From a virus: a DNA stretch of 11,027 nt. Where the stretch lies: UHGV virus genome UHGV-0176277; one strand, written 5' to 3'. Below, piece after piece: positions 3,676 through 7,176 of the stretch (position 1 is its first letter; each line of letters starts with the position of its first letter). Under the pieces are notes generated by a model. It was not told where the DNA came from and did not search any database. It worked only from the letters and a program-made list of their open reading frames with translations. The position numbers were made by a program, and so were the translations under genes.

Positions 3676-3870
3676 CTATTTGTTTTTCTTGTTGCTTGGG
3701 AAAGGACGAACTTCCTCTCCAATCACACTGCCATCAGGCTTTACCGTAACCATAATGTTACGACCTGCCAGAATGGCCTTGCTGATAGCGCACTGGATTA
3801 CACCAAAGTCACTGGCTGCTTTAGCCTGTCCATGGATTTTGGCGTAATCGGCAAGTGTCATTCGAATCAT
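3676..3870 (-). CDS. cro: Cro repressor (64 aa)
   Basis: [62 protein letters not shown] aligns along its length with lambda Cro; ATG at 3870 with GGAG 7 nt upstream; divergent from cI. The track's GTG start at 3876 is a short extension. Confidence 0.85.
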
Positions 3871-3892: not shown

Positions 3893-3976
3893 TGAACAAA
3901 GAATACTACAGGTATTCAAAGCAATCAATACTCAGGGTATTTTTAGTTTAAGTACCTTAGCTATTAGAATTAAGCT
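3893..3976. promoter_or_regulatory. Right operator region: three operators (AATAC-N5-GTATT type) with divergent PR and PRM
   Basis: Palindromes AATACTACAGGTATT (3902-3916), AATACTCAGGGTATT (3927-3941) and a degenerate AGTACCTTAGCTATT (3951-3965), spaced 24-25 bp. PR on minus: -35 TTGATT (plus 3923-3928), 17-bp spacer, -10 TATTCT (plus 3900-3905). PRM on plus: -10 TAGAAT 3965-3970 ending 6 nt before the cI ATG, so cI is leaderless with no SD. Confidence 0.7.
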
Positions 3977-4693
3977 ATGGAAAATAAAAAATCACTGACG
4001 ACAGAACAGCTCGAAGACGCTAAGCGGCTTAAGGCTTTGTATGAGTCAAAAAAGAAAGAATTGGGAATAACCCAATACTCAATCGCTGATGAACTGGGTA
4101 TCACCCAAGGAGCGGTAGGGCATTATCTTAATGGCAGAAACGCGCTAAACGTTGAGGTTGCATCTGGTTTTGCACGGCTGTTGCAAGTCTCAATTGCTGA
4201 TTTTAGCCAGTCAATTGCTGCCAAGGTTGCAGAACAGGCAGAAAGCCTTAAGAGCGATGCCAACGTAAGGTATGCAGGGGAATACAGAGCAGGAAAGAGG
4301 TATCCGGTGTTAAGCAGTATCCAGGCTGGCTCGTGGTGTGAAGCATGCGAACCATACACCATTAAAGACATAGATGTTTGGCTTGAGTCTGACGCGCATA
4401 TTCAAGGTAATGCGTTCTGGCTTAAAGTGGAAGGTGATTCAATGACGGCACCGGTTGGGTTAAGCATTCCAGAGGGGACATTCGTTCTTTTCGATACCGG
4501 AAGGGAGGCGATCAACGGCAGCTTGGTCATAGCAAAACTTTCTGACTCTAACGAAGCAACATTCAAGAAGCTGATAATCGACGGCGGAAATAAATACCTC
4601 AAGGGACTTAATCCTGCATGGCCTCTCGTGCCAATCAATGGAAACTGCAAGATTATAGGCGTTGCAATTGAGACAAAACTAAGGCTGGTTTGA
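3977..4693 (+). CDS. cI: CI repressor (HTH N-terminal domain plus S24/LexA-type autocleaving C-terminal domain)
   Basis: N-terminus ...LTTEQLEDAKRLKALYESKKKELGITQYSIADELGITQGAVGHYLNGRNALN parallels lambda CI; Ala-Gly cleavage site in SIQAGSW; catalytic Ser in EGDSMTAP and Lys in TFKKLI. Confidence 0.95.
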   Translation: MENKKSLTTEQLEDAKRLKALYESKKKELGITQYSIADELGITQGAVGHYLNGRNALNVEVASGFARLLQVSIADFSQSIAAKVAEQAESLKSDANVRYAGEYRAGKRYPVLSSIQAGSWCEACEPYTIKDIDVWLESDAHIQGNAFWLKVEGDSMTAPVGLSIPEGTFVLFDTGREAINGSLVIAKLSDSNEATFKKLIIDGGNKYLKGLNPAWPLVPINGNCKIIGVAIETKLRLV

Positions 4694-4710
4694 TCACGCA
4701 AGGGGCGATT

Positions 4711-5079
4711 ATGGTTGGAACCGCTATAGCAAGCTTTTTTGGGATGTTGGCAATCTCGACAATTTACGGCTTAGCGCATGCTTTTATTGCGAAATCTCTA
4801 TCAGAAAAAATAAGCCAGGCTTGGGCGCATAGATCAGCTCGTTTCATGATTCTGGTGATCATAGCAATACAAGGGATATCTGCATTTATCCTCTATGGAT
4901 CAAGCTTATACCTATTGTATCAAGGCGCGACATTTACGCCTTACACCAGTGATTACGGAACTCTATACGATGGTAGTGAAGACATCACTGTGGCTTGGAT
5001 CGTCTTTGGTTTATCTATGGCCGTGTCTGTTGTAGCAGACATCATTAAGGTAATTCTCGTCTTAACCTTCGCTGACTAA
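4711..5079 (+). CDS. Integral membrane protein (122 aa, about three TM helices), unknown function, directly downstream of cI
   Basis: ATG at 4711 with AGGGG SD 5 nt upstream, 17 nt after the cI stop, same strand with no intervening promoter or terminator; hydrophobic segments VGTAIASFFGMLAISTIYGLAHAFIA, FMILVIIAIQGISAFILYGSSLYLLY, ITVAWIVFGLSMAVSVVADIIKVILVLTF. The track's TTG start at 4690 is less likely. Confidence 0.6.
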   Translation: MVGTAIASFFGMLAISTIYGLAHAFIAKSLSEKISQAWAHRSARFMILVIIAIQGISAFILYGSSLYLLYQGATFTPYTSDYGTLYDGSEDITVAWIVFGLSMAVSVVADIIKVILVLTFAD

Positions 5080-5165
5080 CCTATAATCCCGGCAGCAATA
5101 GCTATCGGGATCCACTTCACATATCCCGCATAAAAAGCACTGAACAAGCAGACACCGAAAAAATA

Positions 5166-5260
5166 AATATCCTTTGTATTCATTTGCTTATCATTATTTC
5201 ATCAAAAATAAATACCTTGGGTATTTACATAATAAAATACCTACAGTATTCTTTAGCCAT
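5166..5260 (+). promoter_or_regulatory. Left operator region with PL promoter
   Basis: Operators AATATCCTTTGTATT (5166-5180), AATACCTTGGGTATT (5211-5225), AATACCTACAGTATT (5236-5250) share the OR consensus; PL candidate -35 TTTACA (5224-5229), 17-bp spacer, -10 TATTCT (5247-5252), mirroring the PR architecture. Confidence 0.6.
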
Positions 5261-5339: not shown

Positions 5340-5652
5340 ACCAAAGAGTAGTTGGCTTTGGGGTGACGTGAAGTGCAGCTGCACGACGGCAACCGGAAGA
5401 TAAGCACCCGGCGCGTCACCGCCAAAGTCAATTCCATAGGCGTTATGCAGCCGCCACCATATTCAAGAAAGCTGCACAAGAGGTAGGAGGATTTATGTGA
5501 ATGCATAACTTCAAAACCGAGGTTAATTAAATCTCTCGATCCGAGCATCGACCTATTAGGTGGTGAGATGCTCTTTCTGCCCCTCAATTCGAGGGGCCAG
5601 AAACCACTTTGCAATCACTATCAATTCCAAAGTTGTTTCATCGGAGGTCAAC

Positions 5653-5958
5653 ATGACAGTAGTCATTACATATCTGGCTGACGATAACGCCAGAAATCGC
5701 CGCAGAGCACGCAGACAGGCTCAACGTGAACAGGCAATGCAAGAACAGCGACTGGCGCGAAAAATTGCGCTAAAGCTCTCTGGTTGCGTCAGAGCAGATA
5801 AAGCAGCATCACTCGGAAGCCTTCGCTGCAAGAAGGCAGAAGAAGTCGAGCGTAAACAGAATCGTATTTACTACCGCAAGCCACGCAGTGAAATGGGTGT
5901 GACTTGTGTTGGACGCCAGAAGCAACGCGGAAAATCAATTCCAGCTTATTACGATTGA
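5653..5958 (+). CDS. N: Antitermination protein N (101 aa)
   Basis: Arginine-rich motif NARNRRRARRQAQREQA near the N-terminus; C-terminus VERKQNRIYYRKPRSEMGVTCVGRQKQRGKSIP parallels lambda N; ATG with GGAGG SD 5 nt upstream. The track's ORF from 5560 is an upstream in-frame extension. Confidence 0.85.
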   Translation: MTVVITYLADDNARNRRRARRQAQREQAMQEQRLARKIALKLSGCVRADKAASLGSLRCKKAEEVERKQNRIYYRKPRSEMGVTCVGRQKQRGKSIPAYYD

Positions 5959-5963
5959 GGTTA

Positions 5964-6233
5964 ATGATGAAGTTCAAATTGAACGATGAAGTTAAATGGT
6001 CAAGCTCATCAAACGGTGTAACGAAGGTAAAAATAGGGTTTATCGTCGAGGTGATCCCTCCTGGTGTCAACGTAAAAAAATTCGAACTAGGCCGTCTGCT
6101 AAATGCCCCTGGCCTTCCGAGGAAAGAAGAGAGCTATATAGTTTGTGTAGGTCCAAGACCCGGATCTCGTGCCAAGCCAAAATATTACTGGCCGCGAGTT
6201 AATAACCTGCGTCACTTACACGATGACAAATAG
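5964..6233 (+). CDS. Hypothetical protein (about 89 aa) immediately downstream of N (position of lambda ral)
   Basis: ATG at 5964 and 5967 follow a GAGG SD; translation MMKFKLNDEVKWSSSSNGVTKVKIGFIVEVIPPGVNVKKFELGRLL...; no family recognised by eye. Confidence 0.55.
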   Translation: MMKFKLNDEVKWSSSSNGVTKVKIGFIVEVIPPGVNVKKFELGRLLNAPGLPRKEESYIVCVGPRPGSRAKPKYYWPRVNNLRHLHDDK

Positions 6234-6290
6234 AAGTGAATATCATTGTTTTACTTTTTCGCAGCAAACCACTTATTTGATGACTGATAC

Positions 6291-6533
6291 ATGAGAGTAA
6301 AAACCATGGGCGCAAGCCCATTAAGTGGTCGTATTTTTCAAGGAACATTAAACACTGAAAAAGGAATGTGGGTGGGAAAGAAAGAAGATGTAACCGAACA
6401 GGCAGTTAAGGCAGTAGCTGAACACCTGATGATAAAAGACCAAAAATATGCATACGAAACGAAGGATGGCAAATGGCTGATAATAAGTCATCAACTGGTT
6501 GATAAATTACCAGAAGAGTTTGTTGATGGTTAA
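6291..6533 (+). CDS. Hypothetical protein (75-80 aa), PL operon
   Basis: ORF with possible starts at 6291 (no SD) and 6306 (GAGAG 8 nt upstream, MGASPLSGRIF...); soluble and charged, no recognisable motif. Confidence 0.5.
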   Translation: MRVKTMGASPLSGRIFQGTLNTEKGMWVGKKEDVTEQAVKAVAEHLMIKDQKYAYETKDGKWLIISHQLVDKLPEEFVDG

Positions 6534-6661
6534 ATTTGCTTTGGCATAAACAACAGAATAAACATTGCACTGTGTATTCATTCCAACGAGTGAATACACG
6601 GAGCAATGTCGCTCGTAACTAAACAGGAGCCGACTTGTTCTGATTATTGGAAATCTTCTTT

Positions 6662-6686
6662 GCCCTCCAGTGTGAGGGCTTTTTTA
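6662..6686 (+). terminator. Rho-independent terminator within the PL operon (tL-like), upstream of cIII
   Basis: GCCCTC-CAGTGT-GAGGGC hairpin (6662-6679) followed by TTTTTT (6680-6685). Confidence 0.7.
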
Positions 6687-6751
6687 TATGCATACCAATA
6701 ACGCTTCACGAGAGGCATTTTCGTTATGCAATCAAACAGAAGGAGCATCCT

Positions 6752-6922
6752 ATGCAACAGTTCGCTATTGCAGGGGCGGCATCGGTTCGCCCTTTCAACC
6801 CGATTTTATCGGTACAGCATTCACGAAAAAACATTTTAACCGGAGCAGACTTTAAACAACCAAGAATGAAAAGCTTGCTCGAAAAGCTTTGGGATATTTT
6901 GAAACAACAAGGCCGTCCATGA
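6752..6922 (+). CDS. cIII: CIII-like protein (56 aa; FtsH/HflB protease inhibitor that stabilises CII)
   Basis: MQQFAIAGAA... N-terminus and ...SLLEKLWDILKQQGRP parallel lambda CIII (MQYAIAGW...LRDGWKRLIDILNQPGVP as I recall it); AGGAG SD 6 nt upstream of ATG 6752. Confidence 0.65.
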   Translation: MQQFAIAGAASVRPFNPILSVQHSRKNILTGADFKQPRMKSLLEKLWDILKQQGRP

Positions 6923-7077
6923 GTTTTACGGATAACTGGTCAGACGAAGAATTCATTCGTCAGATGAAAGAATTAATCGGTAACGAAGGAGATATTCATG
7001 TCACTTGCAACTACAGTGAAGGAGAGCAAGTTACAGAGACGCATGTACACGCAGAAAGCTCTCTGGTATCGCCATAA
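6919..7077 (+). CDS. Hypothetical small acidic protein (52 aa) at the kil-equivalent position
   Basis: ATG at 6919 overlaps the cIII-like stop (ATGA); translation MSFTDNWSDEEFIRQMKELIGNEGDIHVTCNYSEGEQ...; no similarity to lambda Kil that I can see. Confidence 0.45.
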   Translation: MSFTDNWSDEEFIRQMKELIGNEGDIHVTCNYSEGEQVTETHVHAESSLVSP

Positions 7078-7176
7078 TGGCGACCGCGAAGGAATGCGGG
7101 TATGCCTTAATTTGTCCCGAGTCGAAGTATTAAATCAGCGTTATTTTCTTGGGCCATGTCCATTCTGAGGTGATTT

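What the first reader, a model, noticed from the sequence alone, without database searches (positions are those of the whole stretch)
4690..5079. Uncharacterised membrane protein co-transcribed with cI at the rexAB-equivalent locus: candidate lysogen-expressed exclusion or abortive-infection determinant
In lambda the genes immediately downstream of cI, between cI and OL/PL, are rexA-rexB, expressed from PRM/PRE in the lysogen and responsible for exclusion of other phages. Here that slot holds a single 122-aa protein with about three TM helices, starting 17 nt after the cI stop with its own SD and no intervening promoter or terminator, so it should be made whenever cI is made. It does not resemble RexB or SieB by eye. 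A repressor-linked membrane protein is a plausible single-gene superinfection-exclusion or membrane-depolarising abortive-infection effector.
Basis: partly seen in the sequence, partly recalled or inferred. Interest (0 to 1): 0.72.

Follow-up and report, generated by a model that had tools for sequence, protein, structure and literature searches.

The report
Unstudied membrane gene behind phage repressor
The ORF is a real, conserved 122-residue inner-membrane protein (gene hkaS of coliphage HK620, function never studied) that follows the prophage repressor gene cI; it is optional cargo and a reasonable but untested candidate for blocking other phages.

Summary
ATG 4711 to stop 5079 encodes a 122-aa protein, 17 nt after the cI stop, with its own Shine-Dalgarno (AAGGGG, 4700-4705). 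It lies upstream of OL3/OL2/OL1-PL, so PL and PR cannot transcribe it; a promoter scan found none upstream except the cI promoters. It is HK620 gene hkaS ('unknown', 2001), equal to PHROG 6534 (unknown function).

The family is a compact orphan. It has 33 clusters, all 121-122 aa and at least 52% identical, from six enterobacterial genera. It has no Pfam, NCBIfam, PADLOC, PDB or fold relative, and no similarity to RexB, SieB or SieA.

In every locus examined the gene sits in a Cro / cI-HkaS / OL-PL / N cassette, while the flanking modules are mosaic. It is under purifying selection (dN/dS about 0.14, against 0.03 for cI) and intact in 78 of 79 viral contigs.

Three phages with a cI of the same clade lack it and carry a canonical terminator there instead. 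So it is dispensable cargo, not part of the switch.

The AlphaFold2 model (pLDDT 92) shows three transmembrane helices. The most conserved motifs lie on the predicted cytoplasmic face.

Function is untested. An anti-phage role (about 0.5 in total) rests on analogy with rexAB and bstA in the same slot and with small inner-membrane exclusion proteins.

The parts
3676..3870 (-). cro (64 aa from the ATG used in HK620; the mechanical ORF extends to GTG 3876)
   Evidence: Pfam Cro, E 3.6e-26. Annotated as cro in HK620.
3901..3966 (.). OR1 (3901-3917), OR2 (3926-3942) and OR3 (3950-3966), with divergent PR and PRM
   Evidence: Six matches to AAATACCNNNGGTATTT in the window against 0.53 expected by chance. 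Coordinates coincide with the OR1-3 annotation of HK620.
3977..4693 (+). cI repressor (238 aa; HTH_3 plus Peptidase_S24), first gene of the immunity operon
   Evidence: Pfam hits. 99.6% identical to HK620 cI.
4700..4705 (+). Shine-Dalgarno AAGGGG of hkaS
   Evidence: Read from the sequence. An AAGGA-type site at the same distance is kept in all lineages.
4711..5079 (+). hkaS: 122-aa protein with three transmembrane helices (PHROG 6534), second gene of the immunity operon
   Evidence: phrog_6534, E 2.4e-79, full length. HK620 hkaS 99% identical. Purifying selection. AlphaFold2 pLDDT 92.
5086..5111 (+). Stem-loop 7 nt after the hkaS stop; candidate 3' end or terminator of the immunity transcript (no U tract)
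   Evidence: -13.7 kcal/mol, z -2.6. A hairpin of different sequence sits at the same place in the Salmonella-type, L007-type and Hafnia-type loci.
5165..5251 (.). OL3 (5165-5181), OL2 (5210-5226) and OL1 (5235-5251)
   Evidence: Operator pattern search. The block is conserved in all orthologous loci.
5224..5252 (+). PL (TTTACA, 17 nt, TATTCT), reading away from hkaS towards N
   Evidence: Promoter scan. Matches the pL annotation of HK620.
5653..5958 (+). N antiterminator (101 aa), first gene of the PL operon
   Evidence: phrog_271, E 1.7e-36. Pfam N_peptide, sub-threshold.

Best explanation
Shown: hkaS is the promoter-distal gene of the cI immunity operon of HK620-immunity lambdoid phages. 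It encodes a 122-aa protein of three long hydrophobic helices. It is conserved under purifying selection, and it is optional cargo, because close cI relatives exist without it.

Inferred: it is transcribed from PRM in lysogens and from PRE during establishment, and the transcript ends at the hairpin before OL3. It inserts in the inner membrane with the N-terminus out and the C-terminus in.

Committed mechanism (inference only): HkaS is a constitutively present, non-toxic superinfection-exclusion protein. It acts at the cytoplasmic membrane to stop an incoming phage from completing genome entry or an early membrane step. In this it would resemble the small polytopic inner-membrane proteins P22 SieA, T4 Imm and HK97 gp15. 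It probably acts through a host inner-membrane component, which it would contact through two features. One is the small-residue face of TM1. The other is the invariant cytoplasmic-face motifs QAWxHRxARF and D110-xx-K113-x-IFVLTFAD.

My probability for any anti-phage role is about 0.5. For this entry-block version specifically it is about 0.3.
For: Operon anatomy and conservation:
- 17-nt gap, own Shine-Dalgarno, no promoter or terminator in between, and PL pointing away.
- Every one of about 20 examined loci from six genera has the order Cro / cI - HkaS / OL-PL / N, with mosaic flanks.
- dN/dS 0.135; 78 of 79 loci intact.

Optional cargo:
- L109-L111 have a cI 87-89% identical to the window's, yet cI is followed directly by a canonical terminator and then OL3.

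Positional prior:
- Lambda rexAB sits in the same slot. So does BTP1 bstA, which is transcribed from the cI promoter (PMC7067206).
- The cI-N interval is described as a hotspot of accessory loci (PMC8585504).

Architectural prior:
- P22 SieA is a 162-164-aa inner-membrane protein with three predicted TM domains that blocks DNA injection (PMC10883804).
- HkaS has three TM helices and essentially no soluble domain. This leaves little room for an intracellular sensor of the RexA kind.

Other points:
- Protein-level change is faster than in its neighbours. dN is 4-5 times that of cI. 28 of 122 codons carry amino-acid polymorphism, against 1 of 64 in Cro. This is compatible with a conflict interface.
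- The window has no sieB, hkaP, sieA or rex homologue.
Against: - There are no functional data at all: no PADLOC, Pfam, NCBIfam, PDB or fold relative and no literature.
- Known entry-blocking Sie genes that target their own virion type tend to sit with virion genes. P22 sieA lies next to ejection genes 7/20/16. hkaS instead travels with the immunity module, in podoviruses (HK620, vB_EcoP_*), siphoviruses (HK140, HK630, mEpX2) and Stx2c phages.
- The best conserved surfaces are on the predicted cytoplasmic face. The periplasmic loop, where an incoming conduit would first be met, is the most variable region.
- The two characterised occupants of the slot are abortive-infection systems, not entry blocks.
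- The polymorphism ratio (16 synonymous-only against 28 amino-acid-changing codons; my rough estimate is pN/pS about 0.5) shows relaxed constraint, not demonstrated positive selection.
- The slot also carries cargo of unknown or other kinds.
Confidence: 0.3

Rival explanations
1. Rex-like abortive infection without a RexA partner. HkaS oligomerises into a latent pore or channel in the inner membrane. A membrane event of an infecting phage triggers it, the membrane potential collapses, and the infected lysogen dies.
For: - Both characterised occupants of the cI-N slot (rexAB, bstA) are abortive-infection systems.
- Linkage to the immunity module rather than to a virion type fits a generic defence against unrelated phages.
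- There is an invariant intramembrane D110/K113 pair, conserved polar residues (Q54, S65, Y67, Y70) and many small-xxx-small motifs. These are what an oligomeric channel or holin-like protein might carry.
Against: - No RexA-like sensor is present, and the only cytoplasmic loop is about 17 residues.
- No similarity to RexB (hhalign probability 0.7%) and no PADLOC hit.
- The protein is made constitutively with cI, so any pore would have to be tightly silent.
- I know of no precedent for a sensor-less protein of about 120 aa acting alone as an abortive-infection system (own knowledge).
Confidence: 0.2
2. Lysogenic conversion unrelated to phages. HkaS changes host envelope physiology (stress, antimicrobial peptide, bile or acid tolerance, or colonisation), as lambda bor and lom do, and so raises lysogen fitness.
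For: - It is expressed with cI in the lysogen (inferred).
- It is widespread in animal, human and sewage E. coli, including Stx2c phages.
- bstA in the same slot was first reported as a virulence-associated gene (PMC5322425).
- The conserved cytoplasmic face could dock a host membrane protein.
Against: - No similarity to any transporter, sensor or resistance family.
- The family is confined to one cI clade of lambdoid phages and has no chromosomal or plasmid relatives. That distribution is unusual for a generally useful host-fitness gene.
Confidence: 0.2
3. Modulator of the phage's own life cycle. HkaS would be a membrane protein that tunes establishment or induction, for example by acting on FtsH/HflKC and so on CII stability, or by delaying lysis. 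It is made from PRE and PRM alongside cI.
For: - It is co-inherited with cI and Cro in every hkaS-positive lineage.
- The conserved surface faces the cytoplasm and membrane interface, where FtsH/HflKC act (the link to FtsH rests on own knowledge).
- It would be produced during establishment from PRE (PRE is annotated in HK620).
Against: - Phages with a cI of the same clade lack the gene entirely (L109-L111), so the switch does not need it.
- Co-inheritance is explained trivially by the gene lying between cI and OL, which must stay together.
- It evolves 4-5 times faster than cI and Cro.
Confidence: 0.12
4. Hitch-hiking ORF with little or no function, retained only because it is trapped inside the immunity module.
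For: - It is dispensable.
- Many amino-acid polymorphisms (31 protein variants among 78 intact copies) and one frameshifted copy, L075.
- No recognisable domain.
Against: - The ORF stays open and 121-122 aa long, with at most one single-residue gap, across synonymous saturation in six genera. It has 22 invariant residues and a C-terminus (TFAD) that is 98% conserved.
- dN/dS 0.135.
- The Shine-Dalgarno is conserved.
- The AlphaFold2 model is confident from only 7 sequences.
Confidence: 0.05

Closest known systems
HK620 hkaS (AAK28867.1) / PHROG 6534
   Same: It is the same gene: 99% identical, same length and same position between cI and OL.
   Different: Nothing differs. The family carries no functional annotation ('unknown', 'hypothetical protein').
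Lambda RexB (with RexA)
   Same: Same slot (downstream of cI, upstream of OL/PL) and same strand as cI. Both are polytopic inner-membrane proteins of similar size (144 against 122 aa), expressed from the repressor operon.
   Different: No sequence relation (hhalign probability 0.7%). Three helices rather than four (the RexB helix count is from own knowledge). No RexA partner in the window.
P22 SieA
   Same: A prophage-expressed inner-membrane protein with three predicted TM domains and little else. SieA alone blocks DNA injection (PMC10883804).
   Different: No sequence relation (hhalign probability 0.6%). SieA is 164 aa, has its own promoter and sits next to ejection-protein genes 7/20/16. 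hkaS is in the cI operon and occurs in phages of several virion types.
BTP1 BstA
   Same: A single gene immediately downstream of cI, transcribed from the cI promoter, and an accessory defence locus.
   Different: BstA localises to sites of phage DNA replication and is described without any membrane role. It also has an internal anti-BstA DNA element. HkaS is a small membrane protein. No relation to BstA was found by family scans (PADLOC); the two sequences were not compared directly.
Lambda / P22 SieB and HK620 hkaP
   Same: Membrane-associated exclusion proteins of the early-left region of lambdoid phages.
   Different: They lie on the other side of N, on the opposite strand, with their own promoter. 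No similarity to HkaS (hhalign probability 1.8% for lambda SieB and below 1% for P22 SieB and hkaP). They are absent from this window.

Membership tests
HkaS / PHROG 6534 | Full-length match to the family profile | tested here: met
   E 2.4e-79, residues 1-122 on profile positions 1-122 of 122. 97-100% identical to 15 of the 16 phage records that carry it, and 91% to the sixteenth.
HkaS / PHROG 6534 | Position directly after a HK620-type cI and before OL/PL | tested here: met
   Gap of 17-20 nt in all loci from E. coli, Hafnia, Salmonella, Klebsiella, Citrobacter and Cronobacter.
Accessory (moron) locus of the cI-N slot of lambdoid phages | Lies between cI and OL/N, and its presence varies among phages with related repressors | tested here: met
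   Present in 5 and absent in 3 of 8 loci sampled cI-first outside the E. coli type. Other cI families carry rexAB, bstA, a 134-aa secreted protein, a 200-aa soluble protein, or nothing.
Accessory (moron) locus of the cI-N slot of lambdoid phages | Expressed in the lysogen | not testable with these tools
   Inferred from anatomy only: no promoter or terminator between cI and hkaS, and PL and PR read away. No transcriptome of an HK620-immunity lysogen was found.
RexAB abortive infection | RexB homology | tested here: not met
   hhalign probability 0.7%. No Pfam or PADLOC hit.
RexAB abortive infection | Adjacent RexA sensor gene | tested here: not met
   cI is followed by hkaS only. tblastn of RexA against the window gives nothing significant (best E 0.41).
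SieA superinfection exclusion | Sequence similarity to a SieA type | tested here: not met
   hhalign probability 0.6% against P22 SieA. Only one of the three SieA sequence types was compared.
SieA superinfection exclusion | Small inner-membrane protein with three TM segments | tested here: met
   Three hydrophobic segments and three modelled helices. Membrane localisation itself was not tested.
SieA superinfection exclusion | Blocks DNA injection of a defined phage group | not testable with these tools
   Needs plating and DNA-entry assays.
SieB / HK620 hkaP | Sequence similarity | tested here: not met
   hhalign probability 1.8% (lambda SieB), 0.04% (P22 SieB) and 0.2% (hkaP).
Known anti-phage defence systems (PADLOC-DB 2.0) | Match to any model | tested here: not met
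   0 families at E <= 1.
Holins | Holin family match and location in a lysis cassette | tested here: not met
   No holin hit in Pfam or PHROGs. The gene lies in the immunity operon, not next to an endolysin.

The most novel reading that the evidence does not exclude
HkaS founds a new family of anti-phage determinants. It would be a single 122-aa three-helix inner-membrane protein, hard-wired to the prophage repressor transcript, that protects lysogens from unrelated phages. Its fold and mechanism would be unrelated to Rex, Sie, Imm or any catalogued defence system. It would be carried by about 2.7% of complete E. coli genomes, including Stx2c-converting phages.
Probability: 0.4. Interest if true: 0.6.

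Novelty: new member of a known kind. Interest (0 to 1): 0.42.

Why it matters
If HkaS excludes phages, it would be one of the smallest single-gene prophage defences known. It would also be a third, unrelated solution in the same cI-downstream slot, after rexAB and bstA. That would strengthen the idea that this slot can be mined systematically for lysogen-expressed immunity.

It is present in about 1 in 37 complete E. coli genomes and in Stx2c-converting phages. It could therefore affect phage typing, phage therapy host range, and the spread of Stx phages.

The test is cheap: one in-frame deletion and one expression clone. Natural hkaS-less relatives provide ready controls.

If it turns out not to be anti-phage, it remains an example of how genes trapped between cI and OL are co-inherited with immunity specificity.

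Tried and rejected
- **TTG 4690 as start (129 aa), rejected.** The extension is not conserved, and an in-frame TAA precedes the ATG in the Salmonella-type loci.
- **Convergent 35-aa hydrophobic ORF on the minus strand (5183..5076), which would overlap the hkaS stop and could have been a small toxin, rejected.**
  - It exists only in near-identical E. coli versions.
  - The few differences among those versions are all amino-acid changes.
  - It is absent or interrupted in the Salmonella-, L007- and Hafnia-type loci.
  - Its ATG lies inside OL3, and its hydrophobic core is the translation of the conserved hairpin.
- **Remote homology, nothing found.**
  - phmmer against 1.84 billion representatives found one real cluster, one 44-aa fragment, and two spurious multi-stretch hits in proteins of 2200-2400 aa.
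  - A profile search found only relatives of at least 52% identity.
  - Pfam gave only sub-threshold transmembrane noise (Cation_ATPase_C, E 0.0035, 17.6 bits against a cut-off of 27.3).
  - NCBIfam, PADLOC and PDB sequence searches were empty.
- **Fold searches, uninformative.**
  - BFVD and PDB Foldseek gave no hit below E 0.3.
  - afdb50 was unavailable.
- **HkaS as an integral part of the switch, rejected.** hkaS-less phages exist in the same cI clade.
- **Literature.** Searches for hkaS, accession numbers, mEpX2 and 'repressor protection protein' gave nothing relevant.
- **svsR.** The svsR small RNA reported at the 3' end of another prophage's cI (PMC12803456) was looked at and not pursued. 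Rfam finds no RNA family in the window.
Full report
**What the window is.**
The 11-kb window is the early region of a lambdoid (pro)phage. On the minus strand it carries NinB, a DnaB-type helicase, an O protein, cII and cro. On the plus strand it carries cI, the ORF in question, N, and then an early-left operon. That operon includes a Rad52-type recombinase, SSB, Abc2 and an Ead/Ea22-like gene.

The immunity region is that of coliphage HK620. A 2.1-kb stretch around the finding is 98-99.8% identical to HK140, mEpX2, HK620, HK630, HF4s, several vB_EcoP phages and two Stx2c-converting phages.

**Check of the observation.**
- cI runs from 3977 to 4693.
- The mechanical ORF 4690-5079 starts at a TTG that overlaps the cI stop. 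The real start is ATG 4711, which gives 122 aa, 17 nt after the cI stop.
- AAGGGG lies at 4700-4705.
- The ATG and an AAGGA-type ribosome-binding site are kept in all diverged orthologues. In the Salmonella type an in-frame TAA sits immediately before the ATG, so the upstream extension is not used.
- The consensus scan sees no promoter or terminator between cI and the ORF.
- A search with the operator consensus AAATACCNNNGGTATTT finds exactly six sites, against 0.53 expected by chance. These are OR1-3 at 3901-3966 and OL3, OL2 and OL1 at 5165-5181, 5210-5226 and 5235-5251. PL (5224-5252) reads towards N.
- The gene therefore lies wholly inside the immunity module bounded by OR and OL. Of the early promoters, PL and PR read away from it, and no internal promoter was detected. 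That leaves the promoters that serve cI (PRM, PRE) to transcribe it. This last step is inference from anatomy, not a measurement.

**Identity.**
The protein is HK620 gene hkaS, annotated 'unknown' in 2001. It matches PHROG 6534, a family of unknown function, over its whole length (E 2.4e-79).

It has no hit in Pfam above threshold, NCBIfam, PADLOC or PDB sequences. I found no paper that mentions it.

**How wide the family is.**
- A word-indexed search of 5.8 billion proteins gave 12 clusters.
- An exhaustive phmmer pass over 1.84 billion 50%-identity representatives gave a single real cluster.
- A profile search gave 33 clusters. All are 121-122 aa and at least 52% identical. They come from E. 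coli, Hafnia, Salmonella, Klebsiella aerogenes, Citrobacter and Cronobacter. Nothing falls between E 3e-38 and 1.
- This is a compact, enterobacterial, phage-only orphan family.
- In E. coli it is in 146 of 5426 complete genomes, always chromosomal, next to a 'LexA family protein'.

**Is it a real gene?**
- The ORF keeps its length, with at most one single-residue gap, down to 52% identity, while synonymous sites are saturated.
- Where dS is measurable (0.69, window against the Hafnia type), dN/dS is 0.135. The value for cI over the same pair is 0.03.
- Of 79 IMG/VR loci with an essentially identical cI that extend far enough, 78 have an intact copy. One (L075) has a 1-nt deletion.
- The protein changes faster than its neighbours. 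dN is 4-5 times that of cI in every comparison. 28 of 122 codons carry amino-acid polymorphism, against 1 of 64 in Cro. cI itself was the selection criterion for these loci, so it is not a fair comparator there.
- The ratio of changes indicates relaxed purifying selection. It does not demonstrate positive selection.

**Context elsewhere.**
In about 20 loci reached through HkaS itself, from six genera, the order is always Cro (64-66 aa), divergent cI (238-240 aa by homology; some gene calls run from 210 to 254 aa), HkaS 17-20 nt later, then operators, PL and an N gene. Everything outside this cassette is mosaic:
- four different replication modules (O with DnaB, with lambda P, with a primase-helicase, or with a DnaC-like protein);
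- two N types;
- Erf, Rad52 or RecT recombinases.

That sampling is circular for the question 'is hkaS always there?', so I also sampled cI-first.
- In the phage collection, the 16 records with cI at least 99% identical are exactly the 16 with hkaS. The next cI relatives (71% or less) have none.
- In IMG/VR, 8 loci have a non-E. coli-type cI that is 85-89% identical to the window's. Five of them carry hkaS.
- The other three (L109, L110, L111) lack it. There the cI stop is followed after about 25 nt by a textbook GC-stem and U-tract terminator, and then by OL3-OL2-OL1.
- So the switch works without hkaS. The gene is optional cargo. Its otherwise strict co-inheritance with cI follows simply from lying between cI and the operators that cI must recognise.

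**The transcript end.**
All hkaS-bearing lineages have a stable stem-loop within about 10-30 nt of the hkaS stop. In the window it is at 5086-5111 (-13.7 kcal/mol, z -2.6).

Its sequence is unrelated between the E. coli, Salmonella and L007 types, and none has a U tract. It is a plausible 3' end or stabiliser of the immunity transcript.

The GenBank features 'tIMM' and 'OL3' of HK620 project onto 5161-5191 and 5188-5204. They do not fit the operator consensus; the conserved operator-like block is 5165-5181.

**The protein.**
- Hydropathy gives three segments: TM1 is moderate, TM2 and TM3 are strong.
- AlphaFold2 with only 7 sequences gives mean pLDDT 92.1 and pTM 0.79. The model has helices 2-29, 41-73 and 89-121, a short amphipathic helix at 31-38, and a small beta-hairpin in the second loop.
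- Loop 1 has four Lys/Arg. Loop 2 has four Asp/Glu and no Lys/Arg. By the positive-inside rule this predicts N-terminus out and C-terminus in. This topology is an inference.
- Across 28 clusters the most conserved parts are loop 1 with the start of TM2 (Q36-A-W38-x-H40-R41-x-A43-R44-F45-I-I47-L48), and the end of TM3 to the last residue (D110-x-x-K113-x-I-F/L-V-L-T-F-A-D, with the last four residues 98% conserved).
- A conserved stretch, S65-x-Y-L-L-Y70-x-G-A-T74-F, lies at the outer end of TM2. A face of small residues lies on TM1 (G3, A5, S8, G11, S16).
- The periplasmic loop and TM2 are the most variable parts (mean column conservation 0.64 each).

**Comparison with known exclusion proteins.**
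Profile comparisons give the following probabilities of relationship:
- lambda RexB, 0.7%;
- lambda SieB, 1.8%;
- P22 SieA, 0.6%;
- P22 SieB, 0.04%;
- HK620 hkaP, 0.2%.

The window contains no homologue of any of these, nor of RexA.

**What occupies the slot in other phages.**

| Phage | Cargo between cI and OL/N |
|---|---|
| Lambda | rexA and rexB |
| BTP1 | bstA |
| 434 and Huey | a 134-aa protein with a signal peptide, overlapping the cI stop; annotated 'repressor protection protein' in one record and 'PagP' in the other |
| Erwinia phage Eho49 | a 200-aa soluble protein |
| P22, CUS-3, Serratia OS31 | nothing |

Published work states that the cI-N interval is a hotspot of mosaic diversity and a common site of accessory loci. 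It also states that bstA is transcribed from the cI promoter under all conditions tested (PMC8585504; PMC7067206).

**Interpretation.**
Shown:
- a real, conserved, optional, three-helix membrane-protein gene;
- placed as the distal gene of the cI operon.

Inferred:
- lysogen expression;
- inner-membrane location;
- N-out / C-in topology.

The function is not shown by anything here. Two kinds of prior point to an anti-phage role. One is the slot, where rexAB and bstA sit. The other is the architecture: P22 SieA has three TM domains and blocks DNA injection (PMC10883804), and T4 Imm and HK97 gp15 are similar by my own knowledge. I put the total probability of an anti-phage role at about 0.5.

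I favour a constitutive entry or early-step block (about 0.3) over a Rex-like depolarising abortive infection (about 0.2). The protein has almost no soluble part to act as a sensor, and it must be harmless when made continuously.

The balance is delicate, for three reasons:
- The gene travels with the immunity module through podoviruses, siphoviruses and Stx phages, whereas P22 sieA is linked to the ejection-protein genes it targets.
- Both characterised occupants of the slot are abortive-infection systems.
- The conserved surface faces the cytoplasm.

Non-phage lysogenic conversion (0.2), a role in the phage's own life cycle (0.12, weakened by the hkaS-less relatives) and a near-functionless hitch-hiker (0.05, contradicted by the conservation) remain open.

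**Novelty and score.**
The gene has been catalogued since 2001, and the idea of cI-linked accessory defence is established. What is new here:
- the demonstration that it is a conserved but dispensable orphan family;
- its confident three-helix model;
- its cytoplasmic-face motifs;
- its exact boundaries.

It is a well-defined, cheap-to-test candidate rather than a surprise. Interest is 0.42.

Noticed in passing
window 5076-5183 (minus strand): A 35-aa very hydrophobic ORF (MNTKDIYFFGVCLFSAFYAGYVKWIPIAIAAGIIG) converges on hkaS and overlaps its stop codon. It is not conserved outside near-identical E. coli phages. Its ATG lies inside OL3, and its core is the translation of the post-hkaS hairpin. 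It is probably spurious.
   Followed up: yes
window 5161-5204 (projected from L001 3062-3105): The GenBank HK620 features 'tIMM' and 'OL3' do not coincide with the operator-like site found here (OL3 at 5165-5181) or with the conserved hairpin (5086-5111). The deposited annotation of these two features looks imprecise.
   Followed up: partly
window 5433-5638: A 206-bp insertion sits in the N leader, immediately upstream of the N Shine-Dalgarno. It is shared with HK140 and absent from HK620 and mEpX2. It contains a GC-rich stem-loop (GCCCCTCAATTCGAGGGGC). HK140 annotates a 41-aa ORF that starts just upstream and runs into it. Its nature is unknown.
   Followed up: partly
L109, L110, L111 (about 2215-2330): Phages with a cI 87-89% identical to the window's lack hkaS. 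They carry a canonical rho-independent terminator right after cI and then OL3-OL1. They are natural minus-hkaS controls.
   Followed up: yes
L100 2109-2513 (phage 434); L104 2109-2513 (phage Huey): The cI-downstream gene of imm434 encodes a 134-aa protein with an N-terminal signal peptide and overlaps the cI stop. One record calls it 'repressor protection protein' and the other 'PagP'. No paper was found for the first name.
   Followed up: partly
window 4987-4992 (HkaS residues 93-94): There is a common two-residue allele, T93S/V94M, at the loop 2 / TM3 boundary. It occurs in many of the IMG/VR copies and in the largest database cluster (P0002). Some copies also carry T93Y.
   Followed up: no
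L008-L011, just after the hkaS stop: A poly-C tract of variable length (about 9-11 C) follows the hkaS stop in the Hafnia-type loci, upstream of the hairpin.
   Followed up: no
L075 3736-4103; proteins P0007, P0006, P0009: These are rare damaged or variant copies. L075 has a 1-nt deletion at nt 76 of hkaS (frameshift). P0007 has a divergent N-terminal 30 residues, suggestive of frameshifts. P0006 and P0009 align over only 84% of the query.
   Followed up: partly
window 5959-7170: No sieB or hkaP homologue follows N here, unlike HK620 (hkaP) and HK140 (sieB). Instead there are small plus-strand ORFs, including an 89-aa ORF with no family hit and an 80-aa DUF7446 protein (6291-6533).
   Followed up: partly
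L096 3367-4535 (Cronobacter sakazakii): In one Cronobacter locus, 1.1 kb after hkaS has no called gene and no N gene is called. The sister locus L097 has N at the usual place.
   Followed up: no
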